A stretch of DNA of 50,343 nucleotides, from sequence record NC_048204.1. One strand, given 5' to 3'. This document shows positions 1-50,343 of this stretch, piece after piece (the first letter of the stretch is position 1; each line of letters opens with the position of its first letter). The notes under the pieces were generated by a model. It saw nothing but the letters and a program-made list of their open reading frames with translations, searched no databases and had not been told where the DNA came from. This DNA comes from Escherichia phage vB_Eco_mar001J1. Made by a program: the position numbers and the translations under genes.

Positions 1-127
1 AAAATTATGTCCAGCAAGTTTTTAGTAGTTCGCGTATATAATCATGACAACGAATCTTCTTCTGAAATCCCGACAATTTATGACAGGGATTTTGGATGGA
101 GTGAGCAATCGGCTGTTGAAAATGAGC
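1..127. repeat. Terminal direct duplication: 1-127 is identical to 50217-50343 (circular permutation or assembly overlap)
   Basis: Exact match of window start and end read directly from the sequence. Confidence 0.9.
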
Positions 128-14152: not shown

Positions 14153-14195
14153 GTAGCACTTTTTGCTAAACGCCGCTTGTCGGATCGTGTATAGT
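14153..14195 (+). promoter_or_regulatory. Cassette promoter variant (TAGCACTTTTTGCTAAAC, TATAGT)
   Basis: One-base shorter A-run; TATAGT 21 bp after TTGCTA; upstream of lipoprotein gene. Confidence 0.45.
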
Positions 14196-14226: not shown

Positions 14227-14496
14227 ATGAAAAAATTAATCGCAGTTATCGCCACCGTAGCCGCTCTGACCGGGTGCGCAGCGTCTCCTACTGGCAACTT
14301 CAATGAGATCGACTGCACGGCAAAATTTAACGTTAAAACATTCCCTGTTAACGGATTCCATGAAGTTAAAATTAATGCAGTACGCGAAAACAGATTCAGC
14401 CAAAAGCAATACAGGTTGAGCGTTGACAATAAAGAAGTTAAATTTATCAACCGTTGGCAAAATGAAAGTAAATTTATTGATTTGAGGTGTAATTAA
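14227..14496 (+). CDS. Small lipoprotein, candidate Cor/Llp-type superinfection-exclusion protein
   Basis: Signal peptide with lipobox ALTGC; AAGGAG RBS; locus is convergent with tail gene J. Confidence 0.5.
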   Translation: MKKLIAVIATVAALTGCAASPTGNFNEIDCTAKFNVKTFPVNGFHEVKINAVRENRFSQKQYRLSVDNKEVKFINRWQNESKFIDLRCN

Positions 14497-25470: not shown

Positions 25471-25490
25471 ATAGCACTTTTTGTTAAAAG
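25471..25490 (+). repeat. Inverted cassette 20-mer immediately 5' of the chaperone G RBS
   Basis: ATAGCACTTTTTGTTAAAAG reads on plus strand while flanking genes are on minus; TAGATT lies 22 bp downstream on plus. Confidence 0.5.
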
Positions 25491-29219: not shown

Positions 29220-29247
29220 ATGATAGCACTTTTTGTTAAAGCGTCAA
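29220..29247 (-). promoter_or_regulatory. Sigma70-type promoter for capsid gene (TTGACG, 16-bp spacer, extended -10 TGcTATCAT)
   Basis: The spacer and extended -10 are the inverted cassette 20-mer (plus 29223-29241); 5'-UTR hairpin GGCCGTTAAATGTAACGGCC follows. Confidence 0.55.
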
Positions 29248-36754: not shown

Positions 36755-36800
36755 TGTTAATCCTCCTTTGGTTAGATGCCTGATTATACCAAACAACGGG

Positions 36801-36833
36801 CAATAAAAAACCCGCCGTGCGGCGGGTGATTTT
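36801..36833. terminator. Stem-loop upstream of the packaging genes
   Basis: CCCGCCG tgc GGCGGG flanked by A-run and T-run. Confidence 0.6.
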
Positions 36834-37057
36834 TAAGCTGTATATTTTACTTTCCCATCTTTGGCTCGAATGGAATTTAGGATCTTGCTACCGATCATCA
36901 GGTATTGACCACGTACAAGCCATTTCTTTTGTTTTTCGCTCCAGATTGCAGAAGCGCACCAACCTTTATTAATCACGAACTTATAAGCAAAGCGCATGAC
37001 AACGGAAAAGATAATGATAGCCATGATAAAACCAATGCAGAAAGATAATGCGATCAT
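36833..37057 (-). CDS. Small membrane protein
   Basis: Hydrophobic N-terminal helix; GAGGG RBS. Confidence 0.5.
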   Translation of the reverse strand: MIALSFCIGFIMAIIIFSVVMRFAYKFVINKGWCASAIWSEKQKKWLVRGQYLMIGSKILNSIRAKDGKVKYTA

Positions 37058-37221
37058 TGTAAAGCCCTCACAAGGTTAATCGAAAATTGATGTGTTTCAG
37101 GATTAGCGCCCGATTGCTCTTTTGCTTTTGCTACTGCTTCCAGTTCATCAAGAGCATCAACTACGCATTCATATTCCTGTTTGCATGATTGGCAATTACG
37201 CCCCATTCTCCGGATCGTCAT
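37054..37221 (-). CDS. Small Cys-containing protein (55 aa)
   Basis: Stop overlaps start of next gene (ATGA); start codon uncertain. Confidence 0.35.
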   Translation of the reverse strand: MTIRRMGRNCQSCKQEYECVVDALDELEAVAKAKEQSGANPETHQFSINLVRALQ

Positions 37222-37429
37222 CTTCACTTTGTAATTCATCAGCGACAACCTCACGCTTAATGCTGGTAATATTGTGAATCGGGTAAGCAACATTTCCAAT
37301 AGAAATGTAAGTTTCGTCACCGTCCAGCTGATCCTCTGTCGCTTCTACTGTAAAGCATTTAACAAAGCTCTTGAGAAAAGGATGGATAACGGTATCACGG
37401 AAAGAAACGGTTAATTTGTATTTAATCAT
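37196..37429 (-). CDS. Hypothetical acidic protein (77 aa)
   Basis: Track ORF; acidic C-terminus DDDPENGA. Confidence 0.5.
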   Translation of the reverse strand: MIKYKLTVSFRDTVIHPFLKSFVKCFTVEATEDQLDGDETYISIGNVAYPIHNITSIKREVVADELQSEDDDPENGA

Positions 37430-37591
37430 TTTGGATCTCCATTAAAAAAGGCGATACGTCTTACGGATTATTTTGCATTGCAAAAACCTCCTGCATATCG
37501 CCGTTGTTGTGTGACTATCGCGTCACGCGTTCGGGCTAAGCCGCTCTTATGTAAACGACGCCATGCTAACCAATCAGGAAACAGTTGTCAA

Positions 37592-37822
37592 TCATTCCCT
37601 GTCGAAAGCGTTCCCCCACCGTCCACGCAAGTAACCACATAGCCAAATGAATTGAGTGATCGTCAACATTGGCGCGATTGGCTGGTAGTGTTCTGCAATG
37701 ATGCCCTTCATTACTTCATCAACATACTTCCCGCGCTTTTCCACATCCGCTTTCATCGCCTCGCCGCACTTTTTAGCCTGGCGTTTAGCTGCGTTGAATT
37801 GCGCCTCATTCATGCCGAACAT
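37592..37822 (-). CDS. Hypothetical protein (76 aa)
   Basis: Start at MFGMNEAQF overlapping stop of the preceding small ORF. Confidence 0.4.
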   Translation of the reverse strand: MFGMNEAQFNAAKRQAKKCGEAMKADVEKRGKYVDEVMKGIIAEHYQPIAPMLTITQFIWLCGYLRGRWGNAFDRE

Positions 37823-37950
37823 CAGTACCCTCTCCCCTTCCATTCTTCCGCAAGTTTGAAATAGTTCATAGCTTCTTCCACATCTCCGCGCTCCAGTGCC
37901 TCTTCTTGCTTCTCTTTGCACCACTGCGAAGGTTGTTTGCACTCATCCAT
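37822..37950 (-). CDS. Hypothetical small protein (42 aa)
   Basis: Manual translation MDECKQPSQWCKEK...; AAGGTGA RBS. Confidence 0.35.
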   Translation of the reverse strand: MDECKQPSQWCKEKQEEALERGDVEEAMNYFKLAEEWKGRGY

Positions 37951-38020
37951 TAAATCACCTTACCAGAAAAATAGCTAGTTAGAATGCGATTGAGGCGCTC
38001 TAACGGCTATGAGTTTTTAA

Positions 38021-38335
38021 TTAAAAACCGTCGAGAATCTCTCGAAAGTTGTTTAGCGTCTTAACTTTGGCCTTATCCCACGTTACAGATCCTGCATCTT
38101 CCCACGGGGAACCAGGGGCGTGATTTGTCATATCATCAATCAAGCAAGAGATCTCATCAATAACAACATCTTTTAAATGCTCGCGGTACTCAATATCTTC
38201 CACAGGCTCAAAAGCCTGAATGACGCCTCCTAAAACCTGTTGCTGGGCATTTGCCTTGTCCAAATCATCGTGGATGAAACGATGCTCTTTTTTGTTCTCG
38301 TTAGTTCCGATTTGGTAGTAGTGAATGTAAATCAT
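38021..38335 (-). CDS. Hypothetical acidic protein (104 aa)
   Basis: Start at MIYIHYYQ overlapping upstream stop; strongly acidic. Confidence 0.5.
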   Translation of the reverse strand: MIYIHYYQIGTNENKKEHRFIHDDLDKANAQQQVLGGVIQAFEPVEDIEYREHLKDVVIDEISCLIDDMTNHAPGSPWEDAGSVTWDKAKVKTLNNFREILDGF

Positions 38336-38595
38336 AAACCTGATTCCTCCATAGTCTCGTTTATGCGCTTCCAGTTTTCGACTTGCTGATCTCTGTATCC
38401 GTTCTCTCCGAACCATGCGGCAGTTTCCGATTGCTCAGTCACAACAGGATCAAATGCGTGTTCTAGCTGGCTGAAAACTTCACGCGCCACTGGCTCAGGA
38501 ATTTTAACCGTTGCCTGGATGCCGTCATCATCTCGCCATCCAAAGGCCGCTAACATAATGCGCGCTTGCTGCTCTGACAGGTTAATCGTGATCAT
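38332..38595 (-). CDS. Hypothetical protein (87 aa)
   Basis: GAGGTAG RBS; ATGA overlap with upstream gene. Confidence 0.5.
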   Translation of the reverse strand: MITINLSEQQARIMLAAFGWRDDDGIQATVKIPEPVAREVFSQLEHAFDPVVTEQSETAAWFGENGYRDQQVENWKRINETMEESGL

Positions 38596-38804
38596 TCTTC
38601 CACTACCTCGCATTCGTCATGGTTAACACTAATATTGTCGCCAGCCTTGATAAACTCGCTGTTACGCTGCGCAATAACACAATAAGATCCGTCGCTGAAA
38701 TGTCCGTCAACTTCCAGCACATCACCAACAACCAAACCGCATTGCTCAAGAGTTATTGATCCGTCGCCGTTGATAGTGTCGATTTTGGTGATTTTGATTT
38801 TCAT
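38592..38804 (-). CDS. Hypothetical acidic protein (70 aa)
   Basis: First gene after cassette promoter 38837-38880. Confidence 0.55.
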   Translation of the reverse strand: MKIKITKIDTINGDGSITLEQCGLVVGDVLEVDGHFSDGSYCVIAQRNSEFIKAGDNISVNHDECEVVEE

Positions 38805-38836
38805 TGCGCTTTCCTCTGTTTCGCTTCAATAAGGGC

Positions 38837-38880
38837 ACTTTATCAAATGCCCTTGCGGAAGTTTTAACAAAAAGTGCTAT
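38837..38880 (-). promoter_or_regulatory. Cassette promoter candidate (20-mer, hairpin, TAAAGT)
   Basis: Overlaps stop of 38880..39170; 22-bp spacing. Confidence 0.5.
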
Positions 38881-39170
38881 TAGCTCAGATAGTAAAGCTC
38901 ATCGCGCGCGAAGTCATCAAAATCTCGCTGTGTCAACGGTCGATCCTCTCGCGCAGCCTCCTCTATCATGTTGATCAAAAAGTCGTTCATCGCTCCTAGT
39001 CCACCATCCGGCATATAGAAAGCTGCGAAAGCCCGCGCCCATGAACGAGCATTTTTGAATCCGACGCGCTTCATTGTGACTGGCGAGTGTTTAGAGTCGT
39101 TCCACTTGTTAGACTGCGCGATGTTTTCAAAAGCGTTAACCAGTAGTTTGCGGTAAGTTTTGTTTGCCAT
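38880..39170 (-). CDS. Hypothetical protein (96 aa)
   Basis: AAGGGGA RBS. Confidence 0.55.
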   Translation of the reverse strand: MANKTYRKLLVNAFENIAQSNKWNDSKHSPVTMKRVGFKNARSWARAFAAFYMPDGGLGAMNDFLINMIEEAAREDRPLTQRDFDDFARDELYYLS

Positions 39171-39181
39171 TTCAGATCCCC

Positions 39182-39364
39182 TTATTTTTGTTTAAGTCCC
39201 ATCAGCATCTTGCGAACGCCGTCCTTTTTCCCGTCAGAGTAGCCAGTAATTGAACCAGCGGCAAAAACCATCAAGTTACCCCAAAAGGCCATAATGCCCT
39301 CATAGTTAATGGTTAAATGGCTGCCGAAAAGGATCAGGAAAAGAACAATAATACCAGTTTTCAT
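39182..39364 (-). CDS. Small membrane protein (60 aa)
   Basis: Two hydrophobic helices; start at MKTGIIVL with GAGGTG RBS. Confidence 0.5.
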   Translation of the reverse strand: MKTGIIVLFLILFGSHLTINYEGIMAFWGNLMVFAAGSITGYSDGKKDGVRKMLMGLKQK

Positions 39365-39371
39365 TTTCACC

Positions 39372-39620
39372 TCAGTAACAATCATTAACGTGAATCAGTA
39401 CGGAAAAACGACACTTGCGTAAGCGGTGGCGCTTCTTGACGTACATATAAGCATCACTGTAATACTTAAATTCAGTGGCAATGATGACGAAAAAGTCGTC
39501 TGTAACATAGCGCCAATTGCCGCCTAAGCTGCGTCGCTGCACATGATAAGTAGAACAGTCGCGGCAAAATACGATCCGGTATTCCGGCTTAAACAGTCGT
39601 TTCAATGCGTTAAAAACCAT
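39372..39620 (-). CDS. Hypothetical basic Cys-containing protein (82 aa)
   Basis: GAGGG RBS. Confidence 0.5.
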   Translation of the reverse strand: MVFNALKRLFKPEYRIVFCRDCSTYHVQRRSLGGNWRYVTDDFFVIIATEFKYYSDAYMYVKKRHRLRKCRFSVLIHVNDCY

Positions 39621-39719
39621 AGTAGCGCCCTCATGCTATAAAGAAAAAGTAGCATTGATAATACCGCAATCATTGCGGAATGAAAATCAAAAGGTGGCTT
39701 AGGATTCGTTGCGTTATTG

Positions 39720-40100
39720 TTATTTCCCAGCATTGCGCGCAATCCTCTTGTATCCATAGTAGAAATCATCGCCTACGCCACGGAATTTTAACGCGTTACG
39801 CGCCAGGCGGCGGATTCGACGATTATCCAGTTTGCCGTAATTTACTGGCGCTTTAATCGTCTTGATTGGGCAGCCGCGATGATTAGTGATTCGTTTAAGA
39901 GTGGCAACAATACCCTCAAGCGCACGGATAGCGAATCCGTCGAATCCAAGATCTCTATTGATTAGATAGCCATTGATACCATGGATTCCGAACCTTTTGC
40001 TATCAACCTTAACAATCTGGCCCTTCTTCATTCCGCTCTCTGGAATTGCGTAAGTAACTAAGAATTTAGTGCCGACGCGGATTTTTCTGATGTTAACCAT
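39720..40100 (-). CDS. Hypothetical basic protein (126 aa)
   Basis: First gene after cassette promoter 40131-40174. Confidence 0.55.
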   Translation of the reverse strand: MVNIRKIRVGTKFLVTYAIPESGMKKGQIVKVDSKRFGIHGINGYLINRDLGFDGFAIRALEGIVATLKRITNHRGCPIKTIKAPVNYGKLDNRRIRRLARNALKFRGVGDDFYYGYKRIARNAGK

Positions 40101-40130
40101 TGCGATTTCCTATTGCTTGTTGATGTGAGC

Positions 40131-40174
40131 ATTATAGCGGGGCCGATAACCCCGCGTTTAGCAATTCGTGCTAT
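40131..40174 (-). promoter_or_regulatory. Cassette promoter variant (AAATAGCACGAATTGCTAAAC, hairpin, perfect TATAAT)
   Basis: 22 bp between TTGCTA and TATAAT; overlaps stop of kinase-like gene. Confidence 0.5.
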
Positions 40175-40761
40175 TTAATCTGTGTGTGTTTCCATTTGAC
40201 AGTATTGACGATCTCGTTTACAGCAAGTTCCTGCTTGCCGTCCTGCAAGTGGAAATCATAGTGATGGATTCGATAGTGATAACCGCTCAGGTCAATATAG
40301 TTTCGCGAATCGCCAGCAAACGTGAAGCCGTCGCGATGCAATCGGCAAATATGCACTTCATGCCCTGCCTTAACAAGCGGCTTGATTTCTTCGGGGAATC
40401 CGCCATCACTGATCACAACCGCCAAATCTCGGTACATATCGTGAATCTCTTCAACCATTCGACGCCCGAAATAGTGATCCCCAAAAACTGGCTTCATTAC
40501 ATCCTCGCTAATCCAGATCATGAATTGTCGAGGTGACTTGCCGCCTAAGATAACTTGAGGCTTTTCTTTTTGCTCTCTGTCGTTGTACAGGTCCATAAAT
40601 TCATCGTATCGAGTCGGGCCAAGCATAGAAAAAGCAATGTCGAACATAGGTTGCTTGAATGATGCCTTAACCGCTGGGTAACGATGGCCCGTTAGGTAAG
40701 CTGCAATAGTGTCCTTCCCGCAACCTGGAGGCCCATTAAGGATGATAATGTCTCGTTTCAT
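40171..40761 (-). CDS. P-loop nucleotide kinase-like protein
   Basis: Walker A ILNGPPGCGKDT near N-terminus; 196 aa. Confidence 0.55.
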   Translation of the reverse strand: MKRDIIILNGPPGCGKDTIAAYLTGHRYPAVKASFKQPMFDIAFSMLGPTRYDEFMDLYNDREQKEKPQVILGGKSPRQFMIWISEDVMKPVFGDHYFGRRMVEEIHDMYRDLAVVISDGGFPEEIKPLVKAGHEVHICRLHRDGFTFAGDSRNYIDLSGYHYRIHHYDFHLQDGKQELAVNEIVNTVKWKHTQIK

Positions 40762-40933
40762 GATTACTCTCCCCTTGCTTTCAAGACGGTAATTTCTGTT
40801 GTCTCGCTTAAAACCTTGAAATTTCTATTCTCGCTTTTGATCGTCATATTGACAATCATAACCTTACCGCGCTCTATCATGTCGGCAAGCTCTCGAAGGT
40901 GACATGCAGTTTTGGCAATCTCTTCGCTTTTTT

Positions 40934-41098
40934 GTCAAATGGTGGCAATTGCATTTATTTTTCTCCATAGTGTGAGTTGATATTATGCAGCATTTCGCGT
41001 CTATGGCGCTTCTTGCGTTGCTTGTTCACAAACTCTACATGCTCATCGTATCCGCGACGCTTCTTTTTGGTAACGATTTTTTCAAAGTTACGCATCAT
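40934..41098 (-). CDS. Small basic protein (54 aa)
   Basis: Manual translation MMRNFEKIVTKKKRRGY...; AAGGGGGA RBS. Confidence 0.35.
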
Positions 41099-41154
41099 TT
41101 CCCCCTTTAGGTTTTCTCAACATGGCGCACTGCATGAATGCGCCATAGCAAGAA

Positions 41155-41337
41155 TCACCAATCAAATTTCTGTTTGTCTCTGATGATCTCGTAAATTGCT
41201 AACCACACCCAAACAAACCAGAAAGCGAGAACTATTTTATCGTCCTTGTCTGTCGCGTCAGAATATTTCACCAATGCTCGGAACGCAAACAGGCCTGAAA
41301 TGTAAAGAAAAACAACCAAAAAAAAGCAAGTAACCAA
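41155..41337 (-). CDS. Small membrane protein (60 aa), apparent TTG start
   Basis: Two hydrophobic helices; no in-frame ATG; a 24-codon ATG ORF with better RBS spacing overlaps in another frame. Confidence 0.35.
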   Translation of the reverse strand: MVTCFFLVVFLYISGLFAFRALVKYSDATDKDDKIVLAFWFVWVWLAIYEIIRDKQKFDW

Positions 41338-41338
41338 A

Positions 41339-41602
41339 TCATTTATTTTCTCCTTCTACTACCAGCGTGTAAAGCAGAACAGGCTCTACCATGTCGCGGC
41401 GGCGTGGCTCTCGTGGCGAATCGCGACACATACATTTAACGTTTGCCACAATAACACGCACAAGATCGCTAAGTTTTAAGATTCCTTTACATCTAATAAC
41501 TTTGTATGCAACGTCTTCACCGTCGATGGAATGGATGGCAAAGTAACTTTGCGTGCCATCAATAATGTCTACAGCTTTAAAAAACTCGATCTTGTTAGCC
41601 AT
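41339..41602 (-). CDS. Hypothetical protein (87 aa)
   Basis: First gene after cassette promoter 41634-41677; GAGGA RBS. Confidence 0.55.
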   Translation of the reverse strand: MANKIEFFKAVDIIDGTQSYFAIHSIDGEDVAYKVIRCKGILKLSDLVRVIVANVKCMCRDSPREPRRRDMVEPVLLYTLVVEGENK

Positions 41603-41633
41603 AATTTAATCCTCGTTTGTTGTTGATGGGCTT

Positions 41634-41677
41634 ACTATACCGCAAGCCCGTTGAGACGTTTTAACAAAAAGTGCTAT
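41634..41677 (-). promoter_or_regulatory. Cassette promoter candidate (20-mer, hairpin GGGCTTGCGGTATAGTAAGCCC, TATAGT)
   Basis: 22-bp spacing; overlaps stop of 41678..41863. Confidence 0.5.
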
Positions 41678-41863
41678 TTAGAATTTTACCTCTTCCACAA
41701 GCTCAACCATCTTGTAACCAAGACGATAAGAGTCACCGAACAACAAGATCCCCATAAATTCATCGTGGCTTATTGACTCTTTGCCAACCGTTCTAAGCTC
41801 TCCGTTGTGAATCACAGTATCGCCGATCTTGATTTCTGATTTATGGACTAATTTCGTTTTCAT
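41678..41863 (-). CDS. Hypothetical protein (61 aa)
   Basis: AGGTGA RBS. Confidence 0.5.
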   Translation of the reverse strand: MKTKLVHKSEIKIGDTVIHNGELRTVGKESISHDEFMGILLFGDSYRLGYKMVELVEEVKF

Positions 41864-41878
41864 TTATTCACCTGCTAA

Positions 41879-42064
41879 TTAAAAGAAAGCTACATAGTTT
41901 GCAATGCCTTTGGCGTCGTCGTTTGGCATTGCTTTTACAGCCAAGTCATAACCCGCCTCTACCTTCTGCTTTGCTGTTTCTTCGTTGTAGCCCCAGATAA
42001 CCAGGATTTTAACTACGTTTTCTTTGTTCAGGACTTTAAGGTCTTTGGTGATGCGACGTGCCAT
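41879..42064 (-). CDS. Hypothetical protein (61 aa)
   Basis: First gene after cassette promoter 42097-42140; GAGGAAA RBS. Confidence 0.55.
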   Translation of the reverse strand: MARRITKDLKVLNKENVVKILVIWGYNEETAKQKVEAGYDLAVKAMPNDDAKGIANYVAFF

Positions 42065-42096
42065 TTTTGTTTCCTCAATCTCGTTTCGATGAGGCT

Positions 42097-42140
42097 ATTA
42101 TGCCAGGCTTTGCGCCTGGCGTTTTAACAAAAAGTGCTAT
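42097..42140 (-). promoter_or_regulatory. Cassette promoter candidate (20-mer, hairpin CCAGGCGCAAAGCCTGG, CATAAT, TCGAAACGA leader)
   Basis: Consensus copy; overlaps stop of lipoprotein gene. Confidence 0.55.
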
Positions 42141-42397
42141 TTAATATCTGTTGTGACTTGCTGGTGCATTACGTTCTTTCCGCTGTTGTACGTGCTATCC
42201 GTTGCGCCTTTGCAATTGGTGTAATAGATCGCGCGACCGTTATCATAGAATCTGTATGCTGTGCATCCGTCAACAGTGAACAGGCGACCGACTTTGAAAT
42301 CTGACTCCACGCCTACGACAACCGTTGATTCTGATGCCTTTTCGCATCCGGTCAGGAGTGTCATTGCCGCCAAAACGCCTATTAATGCCTTTTTCAT
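42137..42397 (-). CDS. Small lipoprotein (second Cor/Llp-like candidate)
   Basis: Signal peptide with lipobox LLTGC; strong GAGGAGG RBS. Confidence 0.55.
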   Translation of the reverse strand: MKKALIGVLAAMTLLTGCEKASESTVVVGVESDFKVGRLFTVDGCTAYRFYDNGRAIYYTNCKGATDSTYNSGKNVMHQQVTTDIK

Positions 42398-42861
42398 TAT
42401 TGCTCCTCCTCTTTGATGATTTCGCGGATCATATCCTGGTAGCGGCTTACGCCCTCACAAGCCCCAGCCAGCTTATCCCCTTCCAGGTCCACGATATTCG
42501 GGATTGTTGCCAGTAAGCGATCGGCAAGCTTTTTGATCGCCCTTGCCTTGATGGCTGGCAATTCTTCGGGCGTGATGATTTTCCTTTTCGATTCGCGGAC
42601 CATGCGGAAAACGTAAAATTTATCATCTTCCGTTTCCTCTACCTTGATGCTTACCCGACCTGCGGCCCTTACTTCTGGAACGCGGTTGATAATGGTCCGG
42701 CTGTAGGATGAACTGCGCGTGATCTTGTAACAGTCGTCACCGCTTAACATTCCGGCCAGGTCAATTAGTGACATTTTATACTCTTCAATATCGCCACTGG
42801 CCAGGCGGCGACCAAGCTCGCGAAGCCAATCGCAATAGTCCTTAGTGGTCTTCTGTTCCAT
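42397..42861 (-). CDS. Hypothetical protein (154 aa), first gene of the leftward early operon
   Basis: Start at MEQKTTKDY with GGAGG RBS; consensus promoter upstream. Confidence 0.55.
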   Translation of the reverse strand: MEQKTTKDYCDWLRELGRRLASGDIEEYKMSLIDLAGMLSGDDCYKITRSSSYSRTIINRVPEVRAAGRVSIKVEETEDDKFYVFRMVRESKRKIITPEELPAIKARAIKKLADRLLATIPNIVDLEGDKLAGACEGVSRYQDMIREIIKEEEQ

Positions 42862-42892
42862 TTCCTTTCCTCCAGTTGTTGACTGTTGGCGC

Positions 42893-42920
42893 ATTATAAA
42901 AGCTATTTGGTGCGTGTCAA
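42893..42920 (-). promoter_or_regulatory. Consensus sigma70 promoter (TTGACA, 16-bp spacer, TATAAT) for the leftward early operon
   Basis: Both hexamers match consensus exactly, about 30 bp upstream of the 42861 start. Confidence 0.65.
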
Positions 42921-43200
42921 TGTTTTTGTTGTATTCAAAACGTTACCAATATCGAAAAACTACAAAATCATGCGCAAGTTGTTGATTTCAGGGCTGTTAT
43001 TTTTCTGTTCACGCTGTTAACGCAATCCGCCGGAAAAAGTATATATACATATGCAATCCGCCGCGCGCGCAACTATCCATATATGCCCACACACAACCAC
43101 ACCATAGCCAACAAAAAGCACTGTAACAGTGAGAACAAAAAGAAAACATTATAGATATATATAAATAAATAATCTTTATTTTCAATGTATTATAGAGGAT
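42893..43200. repeat. Divergent control region B, homologous to 13757-14070
   Basis: Same ordered blocks as region A, including the AT-rich TATAGATATATATAAATAAATAAT tract. Confidence 0.6.
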
Positions 43201-43408
43201 TTTCTTTGTTTTTTCCGTTTTCGCTACACCGGAAAACCGCGCGGAAACACGCCGCCTGAAATCGGTAACAGGGGTGAACAAAAGACAACAACCACTGACA
43301 GCCAGGCGGAAAAGTGAGGCAAGAGGGGAAGGTTTCACTATCTCCCCTGCAACCAATGATTAAGCGTGATTACTTTTCTCATCAAATTTGCAAAGGCAAT
43401 CATCATTT

Positions 43409-43448
43409 TGACGTGATTTGATTACGAATGATTACTTCTGATTATTTC
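43409..43448. repeat. Tandem 10-bp direct repeats TGATTAC(N3), iteron-like
   Basis: TGATTACGAA, TGATTACTTC, TGATTATTTC in register, partial copy upstream and another GTGATTAC at 43365. Confidence 0.5.
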
Positions 43449-43475
43449 GATCACAATCCTGGCGCTAACCGTCAA

Positions 43476-43519
43476 ATAGCACTTTTTGTTAAAACTCAGG
43501 CCGTCTGATCGGGTACATT
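43476..43519 (+). promoter_or_regulatory. Cassette promoter candidate for the rightward early operon (20-mer, TACATT, TCGAAACGAA leader)
   Basis: 22 bp between TTGTTA and TACATT. Confidence 0.55.
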
Positions 43520-43553
43520 ACACACATCGAAACGAACCGCTCAGGAGATAGCA

Positions 43554-43826
43554 ATGAACATCAGCAAAACCACTTTCAACTTCTCTAAGCGTCACGGTCT
43601 GGATCTGACTGTTGAAGATTTTGGCGATGTTCTGCAACTCTGCATTTGGGAAGCAGATAACGATTGCGAGTGGCTTTGCTCTTATCGTATCAACTACGAT
43701 TGCTTGACCTGGCACGGCAATATCTATCTGCCGCAAGAAGTGAAGGAAGAATTGCCAGCGACTATCAACAACGAGGTTTTCTTGCGTCAGGTGCTGAAAT
43801 TTATCAGTGAGGAGATCAAGAAGTAA
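43554..43826 (+). CDS. Hypothetical protein (90 aa)
   Basis: GGAG RBS. Confidence 0.55.
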   Translation: MNISKTTFNFSKRHGLDLTVEDFGDVLQLCIWEADNDCEWLCSYRINYDCLTWHGNIYLPQEVKEELPATINNEVFLRQVLKFISEEIKK

Positions 43827-44092
43827 TGGCGGTGATTACCGAAAATGATTTGGATCTGGCGGAGGCATTTTGCAGGGCCGCCAGGGCTAACCTGGATGTG
43901 GCTACTAAATTTCTTCCGGTGCGCCCACTCTTTTCGTGTGCGCCCGTGAATAAACCGACTCGCGTAATGATCGTGATTGAAGGTGATGGCCTGTACGCTG
44001 AAAAGACGTTCCACATCAGCAACATTAAGGGTCGTGCTGATTTTATCAATGATGTTTGCTTATTGCAGGAGAAGAAAAAATGTTGGATGTGA
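43826..44092 (+). CDS. Hypothetical protein (88 aa)
   Basis: TAATG start/stop overlap. Confidence 0.5.
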   Translation: MAVITENDLDLAEAFCRAARANLDVATKFLPVRPLFSCAPVNKPTRVMIVIEGDGLYAEKTFHISNIKGRADFINDVCLLQEKKKCWM

Positions 44093-44289
44093 TCAAGAAA
44101 GCACATGAGATGGGTATGGATGTTTCAATCTGCGACGCTTCCGCGCGTCACCCGTCAGCACCTGAAAATATGGTTGTTGTCATCGTGCATAATCACCGCT
44201 ATGAGTGCCGTGCGATGTTTGAGAAGCAGGATAAAGAGTCTCAACGCCGCTTTATCAACGAAGCCTGTGAACTGTATGGGCGTATCTGA
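44080..44289 (+). CDS. Hypothetical protein (69 aa)
   Basis: Start at MLDVIKK with AGGAGAAG RBS. Confidence 0.5.
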   Translation: MLDVIKKAHEMGMDVSICDASARHPSAPENMVVVIVHNHRYECRAMFEKQDKESQRRFINEACELYGRI

Positions 44290-44503
44290 AATGTTCAAGA
44301 AATTGTTATGGCTGTACCGTTCCAGGCGCAACAAGGGATATTGCAGGGGCACGGAAAGTAATCTTGATCGCGCTTATAAATACTGCCTGTTGTTGCTCGC
44401 CAGTCTGCCGGAAAACAGGAAGGAATATATTGCACTGCGAGAAATAACAATGCGGATATATAGTTACCGCAATAAACTATACGTCTTTAAATCTTTACGA
44501 TAA
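44276..44503 (+). CDS. Hypothetical basic protein (about 70 aa), start uncertain (44276 or 44291)
   Basis: Track ORF 44105..44503 trimmed to the first ATG beyond the upstream gene; weak RBS. Confidence 0.35.
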   Translation: MGVSEMFKKLLWLYRSRRNKGYCRGTESNLDRAYKYCLLLLASLPENRKEYIALREITMRIYSYRNKLYVFKSLR

Positions 44504-44515
44504 GGAGTAATAACC

Positions 44516-44779
44516 ATGAAAATTAATGCACCTATTCCAGTTAAGCGCAAAGCACGTTTGCTCAACAACGGATGTTACGCCCTGCGGCCTGCATTTAAGG
44601 ATCGCACATTTCCGGTTATCGTTAACGTGTCTCACGTAAGCCGTAGCGGAAATCTGGTATTCGTTAAAGGTGAAGATCTGGCGGAGCTTGTATTCTATGG
44701 CGGTGCTAACGGCGAACCGCTCGGATTCTGGCTTGTAGATCCGTTAACTGGAGAGCGTGAAATCGAATTTCTGGACTAA
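44516..44779 (+). CDS. Hypothetical protein (87 aa)
   Basis: AAGGAG RBS. Confidence 0.55.
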   Translation: MKINAPIPVKRKARLLNNGCYALRPAFKDRTFPVIVNVSHVSRSGNLVFVKGEDLAELVFYGGANGEPLGFWLVDPLTGEREIEFLD

Positions 44780-44823
44780 ATAGCACTTTTTGTTAAAAAC
44801 GATGCGCTGCTGATTGTTATAGT
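44780..44823 (+). promoter_or_regulatory. Cassette promoter candidate (20-mer + TGtTATAGT)
   Basis: 22-bp spacing; the TATAGT has an upstream TG (extended -10). Confidence 0.5.
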
Positions 44824-44854
44824 TATCGCATCTACAACAAACGAGTATTTAAAA

Positions 44855-45052
44855 ATGGAAAATCAGGTTGATGTTAAAGTTGTTAAGCGCGACAAGTCTC
44901 ACGAAAAAGGTTTGTTTAAGAAAGGTGCTGAAATCACAATTGACCTTGATGATATGGAGGCGTACCACTCAGGGCTAACTTGGAACGTGCGCAAATGTGA
45001 AAACGGACTGTTCAAGTTAAATGGCTTTGAAACATACATGGAGATCATTTAA
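44855..45052 (+). CDS. Hypothetical protein (65 aa)
   Basis: Track ORF, ATG start. Confidence 0.5.
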   Translation: MENQVDVKVVKRDKSHEKGLFKKGAEITIDLDDMEAYHSGLTWNVRKCENGLFKLNGFETYMEII

Positions 45053-45333
45053 TGGCATACGAAAAGAATGATTTCAATAGCGCAAGAGAAAAAATCAAGG
45101 CGGCGCGAATTAAACAGCGCGCCTTTAGATTCTGGCTTGACTATCGCGATCTAAGAAAAGAGATGGATATGCTTATTAAGACTGGTAGCGCATTCTGCTC
45201 TAATAGAACGGTTTGGCGAAATATGAATGCGCAGTACGGCCAGGGTAAAATTCGTGTATTTGGCGGCGCTGTTGATGCTTATGTATTTAGCGCAACAAGG
45301 GCTGTAAGTTTTAACGTAACTGGGATCGCATAA
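45052..45333 (+). CDS. Hypothetical protein (93 aa)
   Basis: TAATG overlap. Confidence 0.5.
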   Translation: MAYEKNDFNSAREKIKAARIKQRAFRFWLDYRDLRKEMDMLIKTGSAFCSNRTVWRNMNAQYGQGKIRVFGGAVDAYVFSATRAVSFNVTGIA

Positions 45334-45545
45334 TGGCAAAGCAATTAAAACTTAAATGCGTAGAAACCTATAACTCAACATGGACATTTACGCCAGGAAA
45401 AGAATATCCGCTAATGGGTTATCTCAAAGACGACCCTCATGTAATTTCAGATAATGGCTTTTACCTTTATTTAAAGAAATACAAAGATGGATATGTTGGT
45501 ACTGGTTTTCCAGGCCATAAATTCAAGATGAAAAATAAGAAATGA
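45333..45545 (+). CDS. Hypothetical protein (70 aa)
   Basis: TAATG overlap. Confidence 0.5.
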   Translation: MAKQLKLKCVETYNSTWTFTPGKEYPLMGYLKDDPHVISDNGFYLYLKKYKDGYVGTGFPGHKFKMKNKK

Positions 45546-45653
45546 GGCTTTTTATATTCAAAAATGCCTGGATGGTGGCGGTTGCAAATGACCATTACGG
45601 CGGCGACGGAAAAAGAGCGCCACGACACTCTTACTTTAACTGAGGAATATAGA

Positions 45654-45890
45654 ATGACTGCAAAATCAATCAAAGTTGAAAATATTATGGCGGCTGTTAC
45701 GGCACATCACCGCGTTATTGTTCGACTTGATAAATCTAGCGGAATCAACCAGTTAACCATCACAGAATGTAAGGGCGGTTACACTGTCGGTATTCATCCT
45801 GGCGGTAAGTTGCGTAAATTCAGCGAGGCTGGATTAAAAGAAATGCTGAATGAATACTCATTCTATATTCAAAATTGGAAGGCTGCATAA
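45654..45890 (+). CDS. Hypothetical protein (78 aa)
   Basis: Start at MTAKSIKV with GAGGA RBS. Confidence 0.45.
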   Translation: MTAKSIKVENIMAAVTAHHRVIVRLDKSSGINQLTITECKGGYTVGIHPGGKLRKFSEAGLKEMLNEYSFYIQNWKAA

Positions 45891-45936
45891 TAAATTGATG
45901 GGCGCTAATGCGCGCCCTTAAATATAGGAATGAACG

Positions 45937-46047
45937 ATGAATAAAATTACTTATATTACTCTTTCTGTTGTTGTTTTTATGCTTGGAGTCACTATTGCGG
46001 CGTCATGTGTGGCATTAATTTATATTATGTTTAAGGTGATGATCTGA
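45937..46047 (+). CDS. Small membrane peptide (36 aa, below the ORF-track cutoff)
   Basis: Manual translation MNKITYITLSVVVFMLGVTIAASCVALIYIMFKVMI; AGGAATGA RBS. Confidence 0.4.
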   Translation: MNKITYITLSVVVFMLGVTIAASCVALIYIMFKVMI

Positions 46048-46271
46048 TGAGTCAAGACGGTTTTTTTGAGCGCCTTCAAATGGCAGAAGATTCCGGACTA
46101 AATAAAGAGGCGGCGCTTGAAGTTGCATATAAAATTAAGACTCTTGATGAGGCTTTAGGTGATATGGATATGGATCTTGAATCAAGCGCAATATTTGCAG
46201 ATCCCACTATGATTGTTAATGATTGTGGATGCGATTTCGATCCTGGTTGTCCGCGCTGTTTTCCGTTTTGA
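46047..46271 (+). CDS. Acidic protein with C-terminal Cys cluster (CGCDFDPGCPRC)
   Basis: Track ORF; directly upstream of the methyltransferase-like gene. Confidence 0.5.
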   Translation: MSQDGFFERLQMAEDSGLNKEAALEVAYKIKTLDEALGDMDMDLESSAIFADPTMIVNDCGCDFDPGCPRCFPF

Positions 46272-47032: not shown

Positions 47033-47063
47033 CACTTCACCGAAACGAAAGGAGAAATAAACG

Positions 47064-47291
47064 ATGACAAAGAAGAGAACAATAAAATGCACAAAAGTTT
47101 ACCACCACATGAACAGCGTAAAGCCAGGTCAGCATTTTAAGGAAGGGAAACGCTATGAGATAATTATGGGAAGGGTTTTAGGCGCTGTAGCTGGTTACGT
47201 TGTTGATGCTCAAGGTGAGCAATGGACTCTTGAAAGACGCGAGGTGGGATTTAAATGTGCAATAGCGGAATTTCAAGGCAAGTACTTCTAA
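47064..47291 (+). CDS. Hypothetical protein (75 aa)
   Basis: AAGGAGA RBS. Confidence 0.55.
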   Translation: MTKKRTIKCTKVYHHMNSVKPGQHFKEGKRYEIIMGRVLGAVAGYVVDAQGEQWTLERREVGFKCAIAEFQGKYF

Positions 47292-50186: not shown

Positions 50187-50343
50187 TGTTTCATCGAAAC
50201 GAAACAACCAAAAGGTAAAATTATGTCCAGCAAGTTTTTAGTAGTTCGCGTATATAATCATGACAACGAATCTTCTTCTGAAATCCCGACAATTTATGAC
50301 AGGGATTTTGGATGGAGTGAGCAATCGGCTGTTGAAAATGAGC

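What the first reader, a model, noticed from the sequence alone, without database searches (positions are those of the whole stretch)
36833..46271. Two dense blocks of small unknown early genes, candidate host-takeover or anti-defence functions
About 20 short ORFs (40-130 aa) fill 36833-42861 on the minus strand and about 10 fill 43554-46271 on the plus strand. They are tightly packed, often with ATGA/TAATG start-stop coupling, and are punctuated by cassette promoters. Several are strongly acidic (38021-38335, 38592-38804, 37196-37429), several are small membrane proteins (36833-37057, 39182-39364, 41155-41337, 45937-46047), and one is a P-loop kinase-like protein (40171-40761). Such blocks in lytic phages often hold DNA mimics, anti-restriction proteins and inhibitors of host enzymes. 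None can be assigned by eye.
Basis: inference. Interest (0 to 1): 0.45.

Follow-up and report, generated by a model that had tools for sequence, protein, structure and literature searches.

The report
T1-like phage accessory early gene blocks
The two blocks are the real but already catalogued clusters of tiny, mostly uncharacterised genes that flank the genome ends of T1-like coliphages; a role against host defences is plausible but unshown, and the least expected item inside them is a conserved structured RNA leader.

Summary
The window is the published genome of Escherichia phage vB_Eco_mar001J1 (Drexlerviridae, Warwickvirus). The finding covers gp19-gp38 (20 genes, minus strand) and gp39-gp47 (9 genes, plus strand). 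The two sets diverge from a 692-bp non-coding region that matches the pac and terminal-repeat end of phage T1.

The genes are small (median 77 aa), densely packed, preceded by ribosome-binding sites and under purifying selection (pN/pS 0.20-0.25). A repeated promoter-like cassette already described in phage TLS punctuates them.

Only four genes get any assignment:
- gp31 is a dNMP kinase.
- gp43 belongs to the Gp54 (CapRel trigger) family and is identical to the non-triggering SECphi27 allele.
- gp37 is a lipoprotein.
- gp38 is a predicted winged-helix protein.

Nothing matches a known anti-defence protein, and the model of acidic gp24 resembles no known DNA mimic. Compared with close relatives, whole modules are gained or lost exactly at the cassette repeats, as in the hyperplastic regions of T4-type phages.

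The anti-defence or host-takeover reading is therefore reasonable but untested, and the feature itself is already known. The one unexpected item is a conserved promoter, three-hairpin leader and terminator at 37443-37591, supported by covariation.

The parts
36810..36827 (-). Intrinsic terminator (7-bp stem, 6 G-C pairs, U-tract) ending the leftward block. It reads as a terminator on both strands.
36833..37057 (-). gp19, 74 aa, basic, N-terminal transmembrane segment, DUF7299
37054..37239 (-). gp20, 61 aa, CxxC motif, PHROG 2919. Homologue in T1. No nonsynonymous change against two relatives.
37196..37429 (-). gp21, 77 aa, acidic (pI 4.4), no family hit
37443..37591 (-). Conserved promoter (TTGACA-17-TAGCAT, 37591-37563), then a leader of about 115 nt with three helices. 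P1 is 37543-37532 and P2 is 37526-37511. P3 is the terminator stem 37502-37450, followed by U6 at 37449-37444.
37592..37822 (-). gp22, 76 aa, PHROG 303. Homologue in T1. Its stop codon overlaps the -35 of the leader promoter.
37822..37950 (-). gp23, 42 aa, acidic, PHROG 1312
38021..38335 (-). gp24, 104 aa, acidic (pI 4.7), PHROG 11192. AlphaFold model pLDDT 83: a beta-beta-alpha-beta unit plus helices. No convincing structural neighbour.
38332..38595 (-). gp25, 87 aa, acidic, DUF7180. Homologue in T1.
38592..38804 (-). gp26, 70 aa, acidic (pI 4.3), PHROG 5684
38861..38878 (-). Cassette repeat AGCACTTTTTGTTAAAAC upstream of gp26
38880..39170 (-). gp27, 96 aa, PHROG 8758 (matches the C-terminal half of the profile)
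39182..39364 (-). gp28, 60 aa, small membrane protein
39372..39620 (-). gp29, 82 aa, basic, Cys-containing, no family hit
39602..39730 (-). ORF of about 42 aa with a C-terminal transmembrane segment. Not annotated here; the equivalent is annotated in FritzSarasin as bas04_0080.
39720..40100 (-). gp30, 126 aa, very basic (pI 10.9, net +20), no family hit
40131..40164 (-). Degenerate cassette (TTGCTAAAC, GC hairpin, TATAAT) upstream of gp30
40171..40761 (-). gp31, 196 aa, P-loop GPPGCGKD, dNMP kinase family PHROG 139. Homologue in T1.
40764..40954 (-). Frameshifted copy of the 63-aa FritzSarasin gene bas04_0077 (one base missing next to an A-run)
40955..41095 (-). gp32, 46 aa, very basic. Borderline match to the T7 gene 1.1 family (21.9 bits, cut-off 21).
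41155..41337 (-). gp33, 60 aa, two hydrophobic segments, PHROG 9755
41339..41602 (-). gp34, 87 aa, divergent between close relatives (78-79% identity)
41658..41675 (-). Cassette repeat. It marks the junction where relatives carry an extra module of about 3 kb that includes polynucleotide kinase.
41678..41863 (-). gp35, 61 aa, PHROG 3623
41879..42064 (-). gp36, 61 aa, DUF7421
42121..42138 (-). Cassette repeat upstream of gp36
42137..42397 (-). gp37, 86 aa, lipoprotein (signal peptide plus LTGC lipobox), weak DUF4884 match. Two alleles only 47% identical circulate within the genus.
42397..42861 (-). gp38, 154 aa, DUF7174, first gene of the leftward block. Predicted winged helix plus two long helices.
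42893..42920 (-). Perfect sigma-70 consensus promoter TTGACA-16-TATAAT in front of gp38
42862..43553 (.). 692-bp divergent non-coding region. It has a core of 15-18% GC (43120-43209) and five co-oriented TGATTAH repeats in two runs with 10-bp spacing (43357-43445). It is equivalent to the T1 genome ends (pac).
43478..43495 (+). Cassette repeat upstream of gp39
43554..43826 (+). gp39, 90 aa, acidic, PHROG 6147, first gene of the rightward block
43826..44092 (+). gp40, 88 aa, no family hit
44080..44289 (+). gp41, 69 aa. In FritzSarasin a one-base difference in an A-run fuses it to the next ORF.
44292..44503 (+). Possible unannotated 70-aa ORF filling the 226-nt gap. The substitution pattern does not support coding (0-1 synonymous against 5 nonsynonymous differences).
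44516..44779 (+). gp42, 87 aa. Its T1 homologue lies in the other (left) block.
44782..44799 (+). Cassette repeat. It marks the junction where relatives carry two extra genes.
44855..45052 (+). gp43, 65 aa, Gp54 family (PF25180, E 2e-38; PDB 9axb / 9erv). 100% identical to SECphi27 Gp19.
45052..45333 (+). gp44, 93 aa, basic, no family hit
45333..45545 (+). gp45, 70 aa, basic. Variable: 77% identical in FritzSarasin, no tblastn match in SECphi27.
45588..45890 (+). gp46, PHROG 4344, variable (62% identity). The family match and a GAGGA site suggest the true start is 45654.
45937..46047 (+). Unannotated 36-aa ORF with one transmembrane segment. Relatives annotate a different small ORF at this position.
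46047..46271 (+). gp47, 74 aa, the most acidic protein of the genome (pI 4.05), C-terminal Cys cluster. It overlaps the start of the dcm methylase gene. Homologue in T1.

Best explanation
These are the two accessory, probably early, gene arms of a T1-like phage genome. They diverge from the non-coding region that in T1 holds the pac end.

How they are expressed (inferred). Host sigma-70 RNA polymerase starts leftward at a perfect consensus promoter in front of gp38. It starts rightward at a T1-type cassette promoter in front of gp39. Further cassettes inside the blocks (conserved 18-21 nt box, an 18-nt spacer that is often a hairpin, then a -10 hexamer) re-initiate transcription. Start/stop overlaps couple translation of the small genes.

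What they encode. The products are a mixed bag and do not form one system:
- a winged-helix, probably DNA-binding protein (gp38);
- a dNMP kinase (gp31), which would recycle nucleotides from degraded host DNA;
- a lipoprotein (gp37) and four or five tiny membrane proteins, which would act at the envelope;
- a Gp54-family beta-barrel protein (gp43);
- a set of moderately acidic or very basic small proteins, whose most likely mode of action is to bind and modulate single host or phage proteins.

How they evolve. The same cassettes act as recombination points at which gene modules are gained and lost. This makes the arms the hypervariable part of the genome.

What is shown and what is inferred. 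Gene reality, the four partial assignments, the cassette architecture and the module junctions are shown. Early timing, the use of these promoters and any host-takeover or anti-defence activity are inferred.
For: - Identity and annotation.
- Position relative to the T1 ends and the 2.8-kb terminal repeat.
- Consensus promoter and closing terminator.
- Cassette repeat: 14 copies against 0.15 expected, co-oriented with the genes, fixed spacing to a -10 hexamer. The same element is published for TLS (PMC11447400).
- Coding reality: pN/pS 0.20-0.25, ribosome-binding sites, start/stop coupling.
- Variability: 7 of 29 proteins shared with T1. Relatives are about 3.6 kb longer in this region.
- Module junctions: both indels against FritzSarasin have their junction inside a cassette repeat. 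gp37 is swapped for an allele 47% identical between phages whose neighbouring genes are 98-100% identical.
Against: - I found no expression data for any T1-like phage, so 'early' rests on sequence alone.
- The cassette's conserved box fits the sigma-70 -35 hexamer poorly. The TLS authors leave its function open (stoperator, enhancer or UP element).
- 25 of the 29 proteins have no functional assignment at all.
- No known anti-defence family was hit.
- The leftward arm is not one uniform operon. gp21-gp19 sit behind their own promoter, leader and terminator.
Confidence: 0.7

Rival explanations
1. The blocks are chiefly an anti-defence arsenal. Several of the small acidic proteins would be DNA mimics or inhibitors of restriction and other immune systems.
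For: - The location is accessory, hypervariable and promoter-proximal.
- Seven of the eight most negatively charged proteins of the genome are here.
- gp43 is in a family sensed by CapRelSJ46, and the authors suspect it inhibits another defence system.
- The close relative FritzSarasin is unusually resistant to restriction-modification, with no explanation found.
Against: - There is no hit to any known anti-defence or anti-restriction family, nor to any solved structure apart from Gp54.
- The gp24 model matches no known mimic.
- Net charge per residue is -0.10 to -0.15. From memory, Ocr is about -0.24 and Ugi about -0.14, so these proteins are at best at the low end for a mimic.
- This phage's own Dam and Dcm methylases could account for restriction resistance.
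- All ten proteins looked up in public sources are named only 'hypothetical'.
Confidence: 0.35
2. The blocks mainly serve host takeover and phage DNA metabolism: host DNA breakdown, nucleotide salvage, shut-off of host functions, and control of phage replication or transcription. They would not counter immunity.
For: - gp31 is a dNMP kinase.
- Relatives carry a polynucleotide kinase in the same arm.
- T1 and TLS degrade host DNA, and the responsible early genes remain unidentified (PMC11447400).
- gp38 is a predicted winged-helix protein encoded next to a region with phased repeats and an AT-rich core.
- The seven genes shared with T1 behave like core genes rather than accessory ones.
Against: - No nuclease or shut-off domain was detected in any of the 29 proteins.
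- Most genes are not conserved across the family, which fits poorly with essential takeover steps.
- Gp54 is dispensable in Bas11 under laboratory conditions.
Confidence: 0.3
3. Many of the short ORFs are annotation noise or decaying genes and do not encode functional proteins.
For: - One gene is frameshifted.
- The ORF at 44292-44503 shows no sign of purifying selection.
- The 36-aa ORF has no blastn match in the two close relatives compared.
- Several proteins have no family hit.
Against: - Pooled pN/pS is 0.20-0.25, and several genes carry only synonymous differences.
- Ribosome-binding sites and start/stop coupling are present throughout.
- Most proteins fall in PHROG or Pfam DUF families that cover their full length.
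- Their 90%-identity clusters hold 3 to 197 member sequences, many on contigs of about 50 kb.
Confidence: 0.05

Closest known systems
Left-end and right-end small-gene regions of phages T1 (ST77-ST55, ST1-ST7) and TLS (Drexlerviridae)
   Same: The position is the same: both arms diverge from the pac and terminal-repeat region, and the left arm runs into terS. The size class of the genes is the same. A dNMP kinase is present. The repeated aaATAGCACnnnTTGnTAAAA element is the same.
   Different: Only 7 of the 29 proteins have a detectable T1 homologue. mar001J1 lacks the polynucleotide kinase module that T1, TLS and most Warwickviruses carry. One homologue (gp42) sits in the opposite arm in T1.
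Hyperplastic regions of T4-type phages with PeSL (promoter-early stem-loop) cassettes (PMC2839356, PMC4122927)
   Same: Small genes of unknown function lie between repeated cassettes made of a promoter and a stem-loop. Insertions and deletions between close relatives have their junctions inside the repeats.
   Different: The repeat sequence and the phage family are different. The conserved box here fits the -35 hexamer poorly, and neither its promoter activity nor any terminator function has been shown. I read only the titles and abstracts of the PeSL papers.
Gp54 of phage Bas11 / Gp19 of SECphi27 (PF25180; PDB 9axb, 9erv)
   Same: gp43 matches the family over its full length (E 2e-38) and is 100% identical to SECphi27 Gp19.
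   Different: The SECphi27 allele did not activate CapRelSJ46 when co-produced with it (PMC11578894), so this copy is probably not a trigger of that system. The benefit of the protein to the phage is unknown.
T7 class I and T5 pre-early genes (Ocr, gp0.7 kinase, A1, Dmp and others)
   Same: They work alike in outline: small genes transcribed by host RNA polymerase from the DNA end that hold takeover and anti-defence functions. This comparison rests on my own knowledge plus the discussion of pre-early genes in PMC13250531.
   Different: There is no sequence or fold relation, apart from a borderline T7 gene 1.1 match for gp32. No stepwise DNA entry is known for T1-like phages. No function has been shown here.
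Lambda pR'-tR' (6S RNA) and the StxS small RNA of Stx phages (PMC7547250)
   Same: This applies to the leader at 37443-37591 only. A conserved promoter is followed about 115 nt later by an intrinsic terminator, with no gene between them.
   Different: No Q-like antiterminator was identified. terS has its own extended -10 promoter after the next terminator, so late genes need not depend on read-through. T1 lacks the U-tract.

Membership tests
Gp54 'phage antiviral trigger' family (PF25180) - gp43 | Full-length sequence match above Pfam's gathering score | tested here: met
   130.7 bits against a cut-off of 27, residues 1-65 of 65
Gp54 'phage antiviral trigger' family (PF25180) - gp43 | Homology to the solved Gp54 of Bas11 | tested here: met
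   PDB 9axb / 9erv, E 4e-17 over the whole protein
Gp54 'phage antiviral trigger' family (PF25180) - gp43 | Activates CapRelSJ46 | not testable with these tools
   gp43 is 100% identical to SECphi27 Gp19. The paper reports that Gp19 is not toxic when co-produced with CapRelSJ46, so the expected answer is no.
dNMP kinase (PHROG 139) - gp31 | Match to the family profile | tested here: met
   E 5.7e-51, residues 1-189
dNMP kinase (PHROG 139) - gp31 | N-terminal P-loop GxxGxGK | tested here: met
   The sequence GPPGCGKD is present at residues 10-17. The TLS paper names the same motif for its kinase.
dNMP kinase (PHROG 139) - gp31 | Match to a curated Pfam or NCBIfam kinase model, or to a solved dNMP kinase | tested here: not met
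   Only sub-threshold P-loop hits were found. There was no PDB sequence hit.
DNA-mimic anti-restriction proteins (Ocr / ArdA type) - gp21, gp24, gp26, gp47 | Sequence similarity to a known mimic | tested here: not met
   No PHROG, Pfam or PDB hit of that kind
DNA-mimic anti-restriction proteins (Ocr / ArdA type) - gp21, gp24, gp26, gp47 | Very high negative charge density | tested here: inconclusive
   Net charge per residue is -0.10 to -0.15. From memory Ocr is about -0.24 and Ugi about -0.14, so these proteins fall at the low end.
DNA-mimic anti-restriction proteins (Ocr / ArdA type) - gp21, gp24, gp26, gp47 | Fold resembling a known mimic | tested here: not met
Bacterial-type lipoprotein - gp37 | Signal peptide followed by a lipobox L-x-G-C | tested here: met
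   MKKALIGVLAAMTLLTGC. NCBIfam gives weak N-terminal lipoprotein matches.
Bacterial-type lipoprotein - gp37 | Superinfection-exclusion function (Cor / Llp type) | not tested
   There is no PDB sequence hit. A separate Cor-like lipoprotein sits downstream of the gpJ-like tail gene at 14227-14496.
Winged-helix DNA-binding proteins - gp38 | Winged-helix fold | tested here: inconclusive
Winged-helix DNA-binding proteins - gp38 | Binds DNA | not testable with these tools
   The most conserved stretch is SYSRTIINRVPEV. It sits in the helical part of the model, just before the beta-hairpin wing.
T1/TLS intergenic repeat, PeSL-like regulatory cassette | Repeated conserved box, co-oriented with the genes, at a fixed distance from a -10 hexamer and about 75 nt from the start codon | tested here: met
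   14 copies against 0.15 expected, with an 18-nt spacing. This matches the TLS description.
T1/TLS intergenic repeat, PeSL-like regulatory cassette | Indel junctions between relatives fall inside the repeat | tested here: met
   Both mar001J1 / FritzSarasin indels have their junction inside the repeat.
T1/TLS intergenic repeat, PeSL-like regulatory cassette | Promoter activity | not testable with these tools
   The box fits the -35 consensus poorly. Its function is left open in the TLS paper.
T7 gene 1.1 family (PF08200) - gp32 | Match above the gathering score | tested here: inconclusive
   21.9 bits against a cut-off of 21, E 2.4e-4, over only 26 profile positions of a low-complexity basic peptide
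Structured cis-regulatory leader or small RNA - 37443-37591 | Conserved secondary structure with compensatory changes | tested here: met
   18 pairs, 97.6% of cells paired, 10 pairs with changes on both sides. None of 500 shuffles reached this, and slid controls gave 20-56% paired. The covariance model finds the T1 copy, which was not in the seed alignment, at E 1e-4.
Structured cis-regulatory leader or small RNA - 37443-37591 | Membership of a described RNA family | tested here: not met
   No Rfam match at E up to 1

The most novel reading that the evidence does not exclude
The conserved module at 37443-37591 (minus strand) lies inside the leftward block. It has an invariant -35 hexamer and a conserved promoter spacer. 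Downstream come three hairpins supported by covariation, the last of which is an intrinsic terminator placed just before the gp21 ribosome-binding site. The most novel reading is that this is an undescribed T1-family regulatory RNA. It could be a small RNA of about 115 nt made by early termination, or an attenuation or antitermination switch that gates gp21-gp19 and possibly transcription towards the packaging genes. A separate reading that the evidence also does not exclude is that one or more of the small proteins is a new inhibitor of host immunity. I score the RNA reading here.
Probability: 0.4. Interest if true: 0.55.

Novelty: already known. Interest (0 to 1): 0.3.

Why it matters
As stated, the finding adds little. 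The genome is published, all 29 ORFs are annotated as hypothetical, and the same arms and the same repeat are described for T1 and TLS.

It matters as a shortlist. T1-like phages are abundant, are used in defence-system screens (SECphi27, BASEL Bas01-13), and differ greatly in sensitivity to host immunity for reasons nobody has traced to genes. The modules that vary between near-identical Warwickviruses are the obvious candidates for those differences: gp34, gp37, gp45, gp46, the polynucleotide kinase module and the small membrane ORFs.

The cassette-bounded structure also shows how to swap modules cleanly. The conserved leader RNA, if functional, would be the first regulatory RNA described for this phage family. 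It would also bear on the open question of how T1-type transcription is organised without a phage RNA polymerase or sigma factor.

Tried and rejected
- Family searches. PHROGs, Pfam, NCBIfam and PADLOC scans of all 29 proteins gave only DUF or unknown-function families, plus gp31 and gp43. PADLOC gave nothing. Some of these scans were run on concatenated sequences.
- Solved structures. One PDB sequence search of all proteins joined end to end returned only Gp54.
- Homologue searches. For gp38, gp24 and gp22 they returned only unnamed proteins, mostly on contigs of about 50 kb. The gp22 search was nearly empty.
- Structure models. gp38 gives a generic winged helix, and its only close structural relatives in the viral library are uncharacterised proteins, mostly of T1-like phages. 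gp24 gives no meaningful neighbour. The afdb50 library was not available.
- Public names. All ten proteins looked up are 'hypothetical'.
- Rfam and tRNA scans found nothing.
- Literature. I found no anti-defence protein from a T1-like phage in the EVADES preprint text, no T1-family small RNA or antitermination paper and no transcriptome.
- Mokosh trigger. The 128-aa SECphi27 trigger of Mokosh type I is SECphi27 gp13, the only 128-aa CDS in that genome, which lies beside the dcm gene. In this window only a partial homologue exists, at 47040-47288, outside the region.
- RAZR triggers. These are the putative recombinase and the portal protein, also outside the region.
- Late-gene antitermination. 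I considered that the leader is a lambda-like antitermination site for the late genes. I downgraded the idea after finding a perfect extended -10 promoter, TGGTATAAT, right after the next terminator and 26 nt before the terS start codon.
- Small-RNA target. A search for a target of the conserved leader stretch within the phage genome found nothing above chance.
- gp37 as the exclusion lipoprotein. I considered gp37 as the receptor-blocking lipoprotein, but a Cor-like lipoprotein is already encoded downstream of the gpJ-like tail gene. I did not test whether gp37 alleles co-vary with receptor type.

Full report
**What the window is.** Megablast shows that the 9.4-kb region is 100% identical to Escherichia phage vB_Eco_mar001J1 (LR027388 / NC_048206, 50,343 bp). 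This phage belongs to Drexlerviridae, Tempevirinae, Warwickvirus. About 270 related records match, and Warwickviruses such as FritzSarasin (Bas04), vB_EcoS-95, tonijn and SECphi27 share about 94-96% identity. In this region window coordinate = record coordinate + 21241. The finding corresponds to gp19-gp38 (20 CDS, minus strand) and gp39-gp47 (9 CDS, plus strand). It is bounded by the small terminase gene on the left and the dcm methylase gene on the right. All but gp31 are annotated as hypothetical.

- Lengths are 42-196 aa, median 77, against a median of 163 for the rest of the genome. Coding density is 86% and 82%.
- Eight of 27 junctions within the blocks are 1-4 nt overlaps of the ATGA, TAATG or TGATG type.
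- Almost all starts have a Shine-Dalgarno sequence.
- Against FritzSarasin and SECphi27 the pooled pN/pS is 0.25 and 0.20. Several genes (gp20, gp22, gp35, gp36, gp43) carry only synonymous differences. These are real genes under purifying selection.

- The proteins called 'strongly acidic' are moderately acidic (pI 4.3-4.7, net -8 to -10). The most acidic protein, gp47 (pI 4.05), was not listed. Even so, seven of the eight most negatively charged proteins of the genome sit in these blocks.
- The four proposed membrane proteins all have hydrophobic segments of transmembrane length. A fifth candidate lies at 39602-39730.
- Three 'gaps' are not empty. The stretch 40764-40954 is a frameshifted copy of a 63-aa gene that is intact in FritzSarasin. 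The stretch 44292-44503 is an ORF that FritzSarasin fuses to gp41 through a one-base difference in an A-run, but its substitutions are nearly all nonsynonymous, so coding is doubtful. The stretch 37430-37591 is treated below.

**Genome context.**
- In the T1 record the sequence starts at the pac end and carries a 2.8-kb terminal repeat. ST77 to ST55 run rightward from that end into terS, and ST1 to ST7 run away from the other end. The two blocks here are the same two arms.
- The 692-bp non-coding region between them (42862-43553) is therefore the counterpart of the T1 genome ends.
- It holds a perfect sigma-70 promoter (TTGACA-16-TATAAT, 42920-42893) in front of gp38.
- It has a core of 15-18% GC at 43120-43209.
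- It has five co-oriented TGATTAH repeats in two runs with 10-bp spacing at 43357-43445. T1 shows the same kind of GATTA(A/C) repeats and an AT-rich core near its ends.
- Whether this is pac, an origin, or both cannot be told from sequence.
- A strong terminator (36810-36827) closes the leftward arm. It is followed at once by a perfect extended -10 promoter (TGGTATAAT, 36783-36791), 26 nt before the terS start codon.

**The 'cassette promoters'.**
- AGCACTTTTTGTTAAAAC occurs 14 times in the window against 0.15 expected.
- Every copy points the same way as the local genes. Each is followed after about 18 nt (17 nt in two copies), often a GC-rich hairpin, by a -10-like hexamer. The start codon lies about 75 nt downstream of the box.
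- Five copies are in the region, and a degenerate one precedes gp30.
- This is the 21-nt repeat aaATAGCACnnnTTGnTAAAA already reported for TLS. Its authors leave its role open: stoperator, enhancer site or UP element (PMC11447400).
- New here is the link to indels. mar001J1 lacks a module of about 3 kb (seven genes, including polynucleotide kinase) and a two-gene module that FritzSarasin carries. In both cases the mar001J1 junction lies inside a cassette repeat, with the FritzSarasin left flank on one side and the right flank on the other.
- That is the behaviour described for PeSL cassettes in the hyperplastic regions of T4-type phages (PMC2839356, PMC4122927).

**Variability.**
- Only 7 of the 29 proteins have a tblastn match in T1 (gp20, gp22, gp25, gp31, gp42, gp46, gp47). 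The gp42 homologue lies in the opposite arm in T1.
- Within the genus, gp34, gp45 and gp46 are 62-79% identical while their neighbours are 95-100% identical.
- gp37 exists as two alleles only 47% identical. FritzSarasin and the phage tonnikala are assigned to the same species yet carry different alleles. Homologues also occur in unrelated Serratia, Pantoea and Pseudomonas phages.

**What the proteins are.** PHROGs, Pfam, NCBIfam, PADLOC and a PDB sequence search were run on all of them.
- gp31 is a dNMP kinase (PHROG 139, E 6e-51, P-loop GPPGCGKD).
- gp43 is a full-length member of PF25180, 'phage antiviral trigger protein Gp54' (E 2e-38), and matches the crystal structures 9axb / 9erv.
  - Gp54 of Bas11 binds and activates the CapRelSJ46 toxin-antitoxin defence protein. 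It is non-essential and its own function is unknown. The authors suggest it may inhibit another defence system (PMC11578894).
  - gp43 is 100% identical to SECphi27 Gp19, an allele that did not activate CapRelSJ46.
- gp37 has a signal peptide and an LTGC lipobox, with a weak DUF4884 match.
- gp32 is a borderline match to T7 gene 1.1.
- gp19, gp25, gp36 and gp38 fall in Pfam DUFs. The rest fall in PHROGs of unknown function or in none.
- No hit is to an anti-restriction, anti-CRISPR, anti-CBASS, Gam, Ocr or ArdA family, or to a defence system.
- Ten proteins looked up by exact sequence are named only 'hypothetical' in public sources.

**Structure models.**
- gp38 is the first gene after the consensus promoter. 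Its family has 14 clusters, mostly on contigs of about 50 kb. The most conserved stretch is SYSRTIINRVPEV.
- Its AlphaFold2 model (pLDDT 82.7) shows an H-E-H-H-H-H-E-E unit followed by two long helices.
- I take gp38 to be a family-wide winged-helix, probably DNA-binding, protein. Its target could be the adjacent repeats. This is inference.

**The unexpected element.** The stop codon of gp22 overlaps the -35 of a promoter (TTGACA-17-TAGCAT, 37591-37563). About 115 nt of transcript follow before a hairpin and a U6 tract that end 14 nt before the gp21 start codon.
- The element is present in 129 phage records.
- In 14 sequences from Warwickvirus, Hanrivervirus, Henuseptimavirus, IMG/VR contigs and T1, the -35 hexamer is invariant and the spacer motif CCTGATTGG is conserved. 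The 6-7 nt after the -10 are hypervariable.
- Three helices are kept. Across 18 pairs, 97.6% of cells are paired and 10 pairs carry changes on both sides. None of 500 shuffles reaches this, and slid controls give 20-56% paired.
- A covariance model built without T1 finds one copy per genome and recovers the T1 copy at 26.5 bits, E 1e-4.
- Rfam has no match, and I found no paper on it.
- A promoter followed by a terminator with no gene between them suggests a small RNA made by early termination, or an attenuator for gp21-gp19.
- A role in late-gene antitermination is less likely, because terS has its own promoter-like site. T1 also lacks the U-tract.
- This element splits the 'leftward block' into gp38-gp22 and gp21-gp19.

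**Interpretation.** The best-supported account is that these are the two accessory, probably early, arms of a T1-type genome. Host RNA polymerase would transcribe them from a consensus promoter and T1-type cassettes. They are built from cassette-bounded modules that recombine at the repeats, and they encode a functionally mixed set of small proteins.

It is helped by the Gp54 link and by the unexplained restriction resistance of FritzSarasin (PMC8594841). No test available here confirms it, and one gene is plainly housekeeping. The TLS authors state that the early genes behind host DNA degradation are still unidentified, so a takeover role is just as open.

**Verdict.** The feature is already known as a kind, and in this very genome. 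Interest is modest at 0.3. It comes mainly from the shortlist of variable modules and from the conserved leader RNA, which deserves its own test.

Noticed in passing
window 37443-37591 (minus strand): A conserved promoter is followed by a three-hairpin leader and an intrinsic terminator, between gp22 and gp21. It is present in 129 phage records. 10 of 18 base pairs show compensatory changes. There is one copy per genome, no Rfam family and no paper found.
   Followed up: yes
window 43357-43445 and 43120-43209: Five co-oriented TGATTAH repeats lie in two runs with 10-bp spacing, next to a core of 15-18% GC, in the divergent non-coding region. T1 has similar repeats near its pac end. This could be a terminase recognition site, a replication origin or an operator.
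   Followed up: partly
window 36783-36791 (minus strand): A perfect extended -10 promoter, TGGTATAAT, lies directly after terminator 36810-36827 and 26 nt before the terS start codon. It is one of only two such sites in the genome. The hexamer-based scan missed it.
   Followed up: partly
window 1-127 and 50217-50343: The first and last 127 bases of the window are identical. This looks like an assembly overlap (the length suggests a k-mer of 127), which would make the real genome 50,216 bp. Outside the region of the finding, window coordinate = record coordinate - 28975.
   Followed up: yes
window 42137-42397 (gp37): The lipoprotein gene exists as two alleles only 47% identical among phages whose flanking genes are 98-100% identical. 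It also has homologues in Serratia, Pantoea and Pseudomonas phages. I did not test whether the allele co-varies with receptor type.
   Followed up: partly
window 47040-47288: gp49, just right of dcm and outside the finding, is 45% identical to the C-terminal two thirds of SECphi27 gp13. That is the only 128-aa CDS in SECphi27 and so is presumably the protein reported to trigger the Mokosh type I defence system (bioRxiv 10.1101/2022.08.27.505566).
   Followed up: partly
window 14227-14496: A Cor-like lipoprotein (MKKLIAVIATVAALTGC...) lies downstream of the gpJ-like tail gene and is preceded by a cassette repeat at 14155. It is probably the receptor-blocking exclusion protein of this phage.
   Followed up: no
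window 25473-25490 and 29225-29242 (plus strand): Two copies of the cassette repeat lie on the plus strand inside the minus-strand structural gene region. They could drive antisense transcripts.
   Followed up: no
window 40764-40954 and 44164-44167: One-base differences at A-runs between mar001J1 and FritzSarasin break one gene in mar001J1 and fuse two ORFs in FritzSarasin. Either could be a real mutation or a sequencing error.
   Followed up: partly
public records matched: About 20 records named 'Campylobacter phage' with host C. jejuni (for example A143 and A113) carry this T1-like coliphage region. In some searches the identities were 78-86%. They look mislabelled or contaminated.
   Followed up: no
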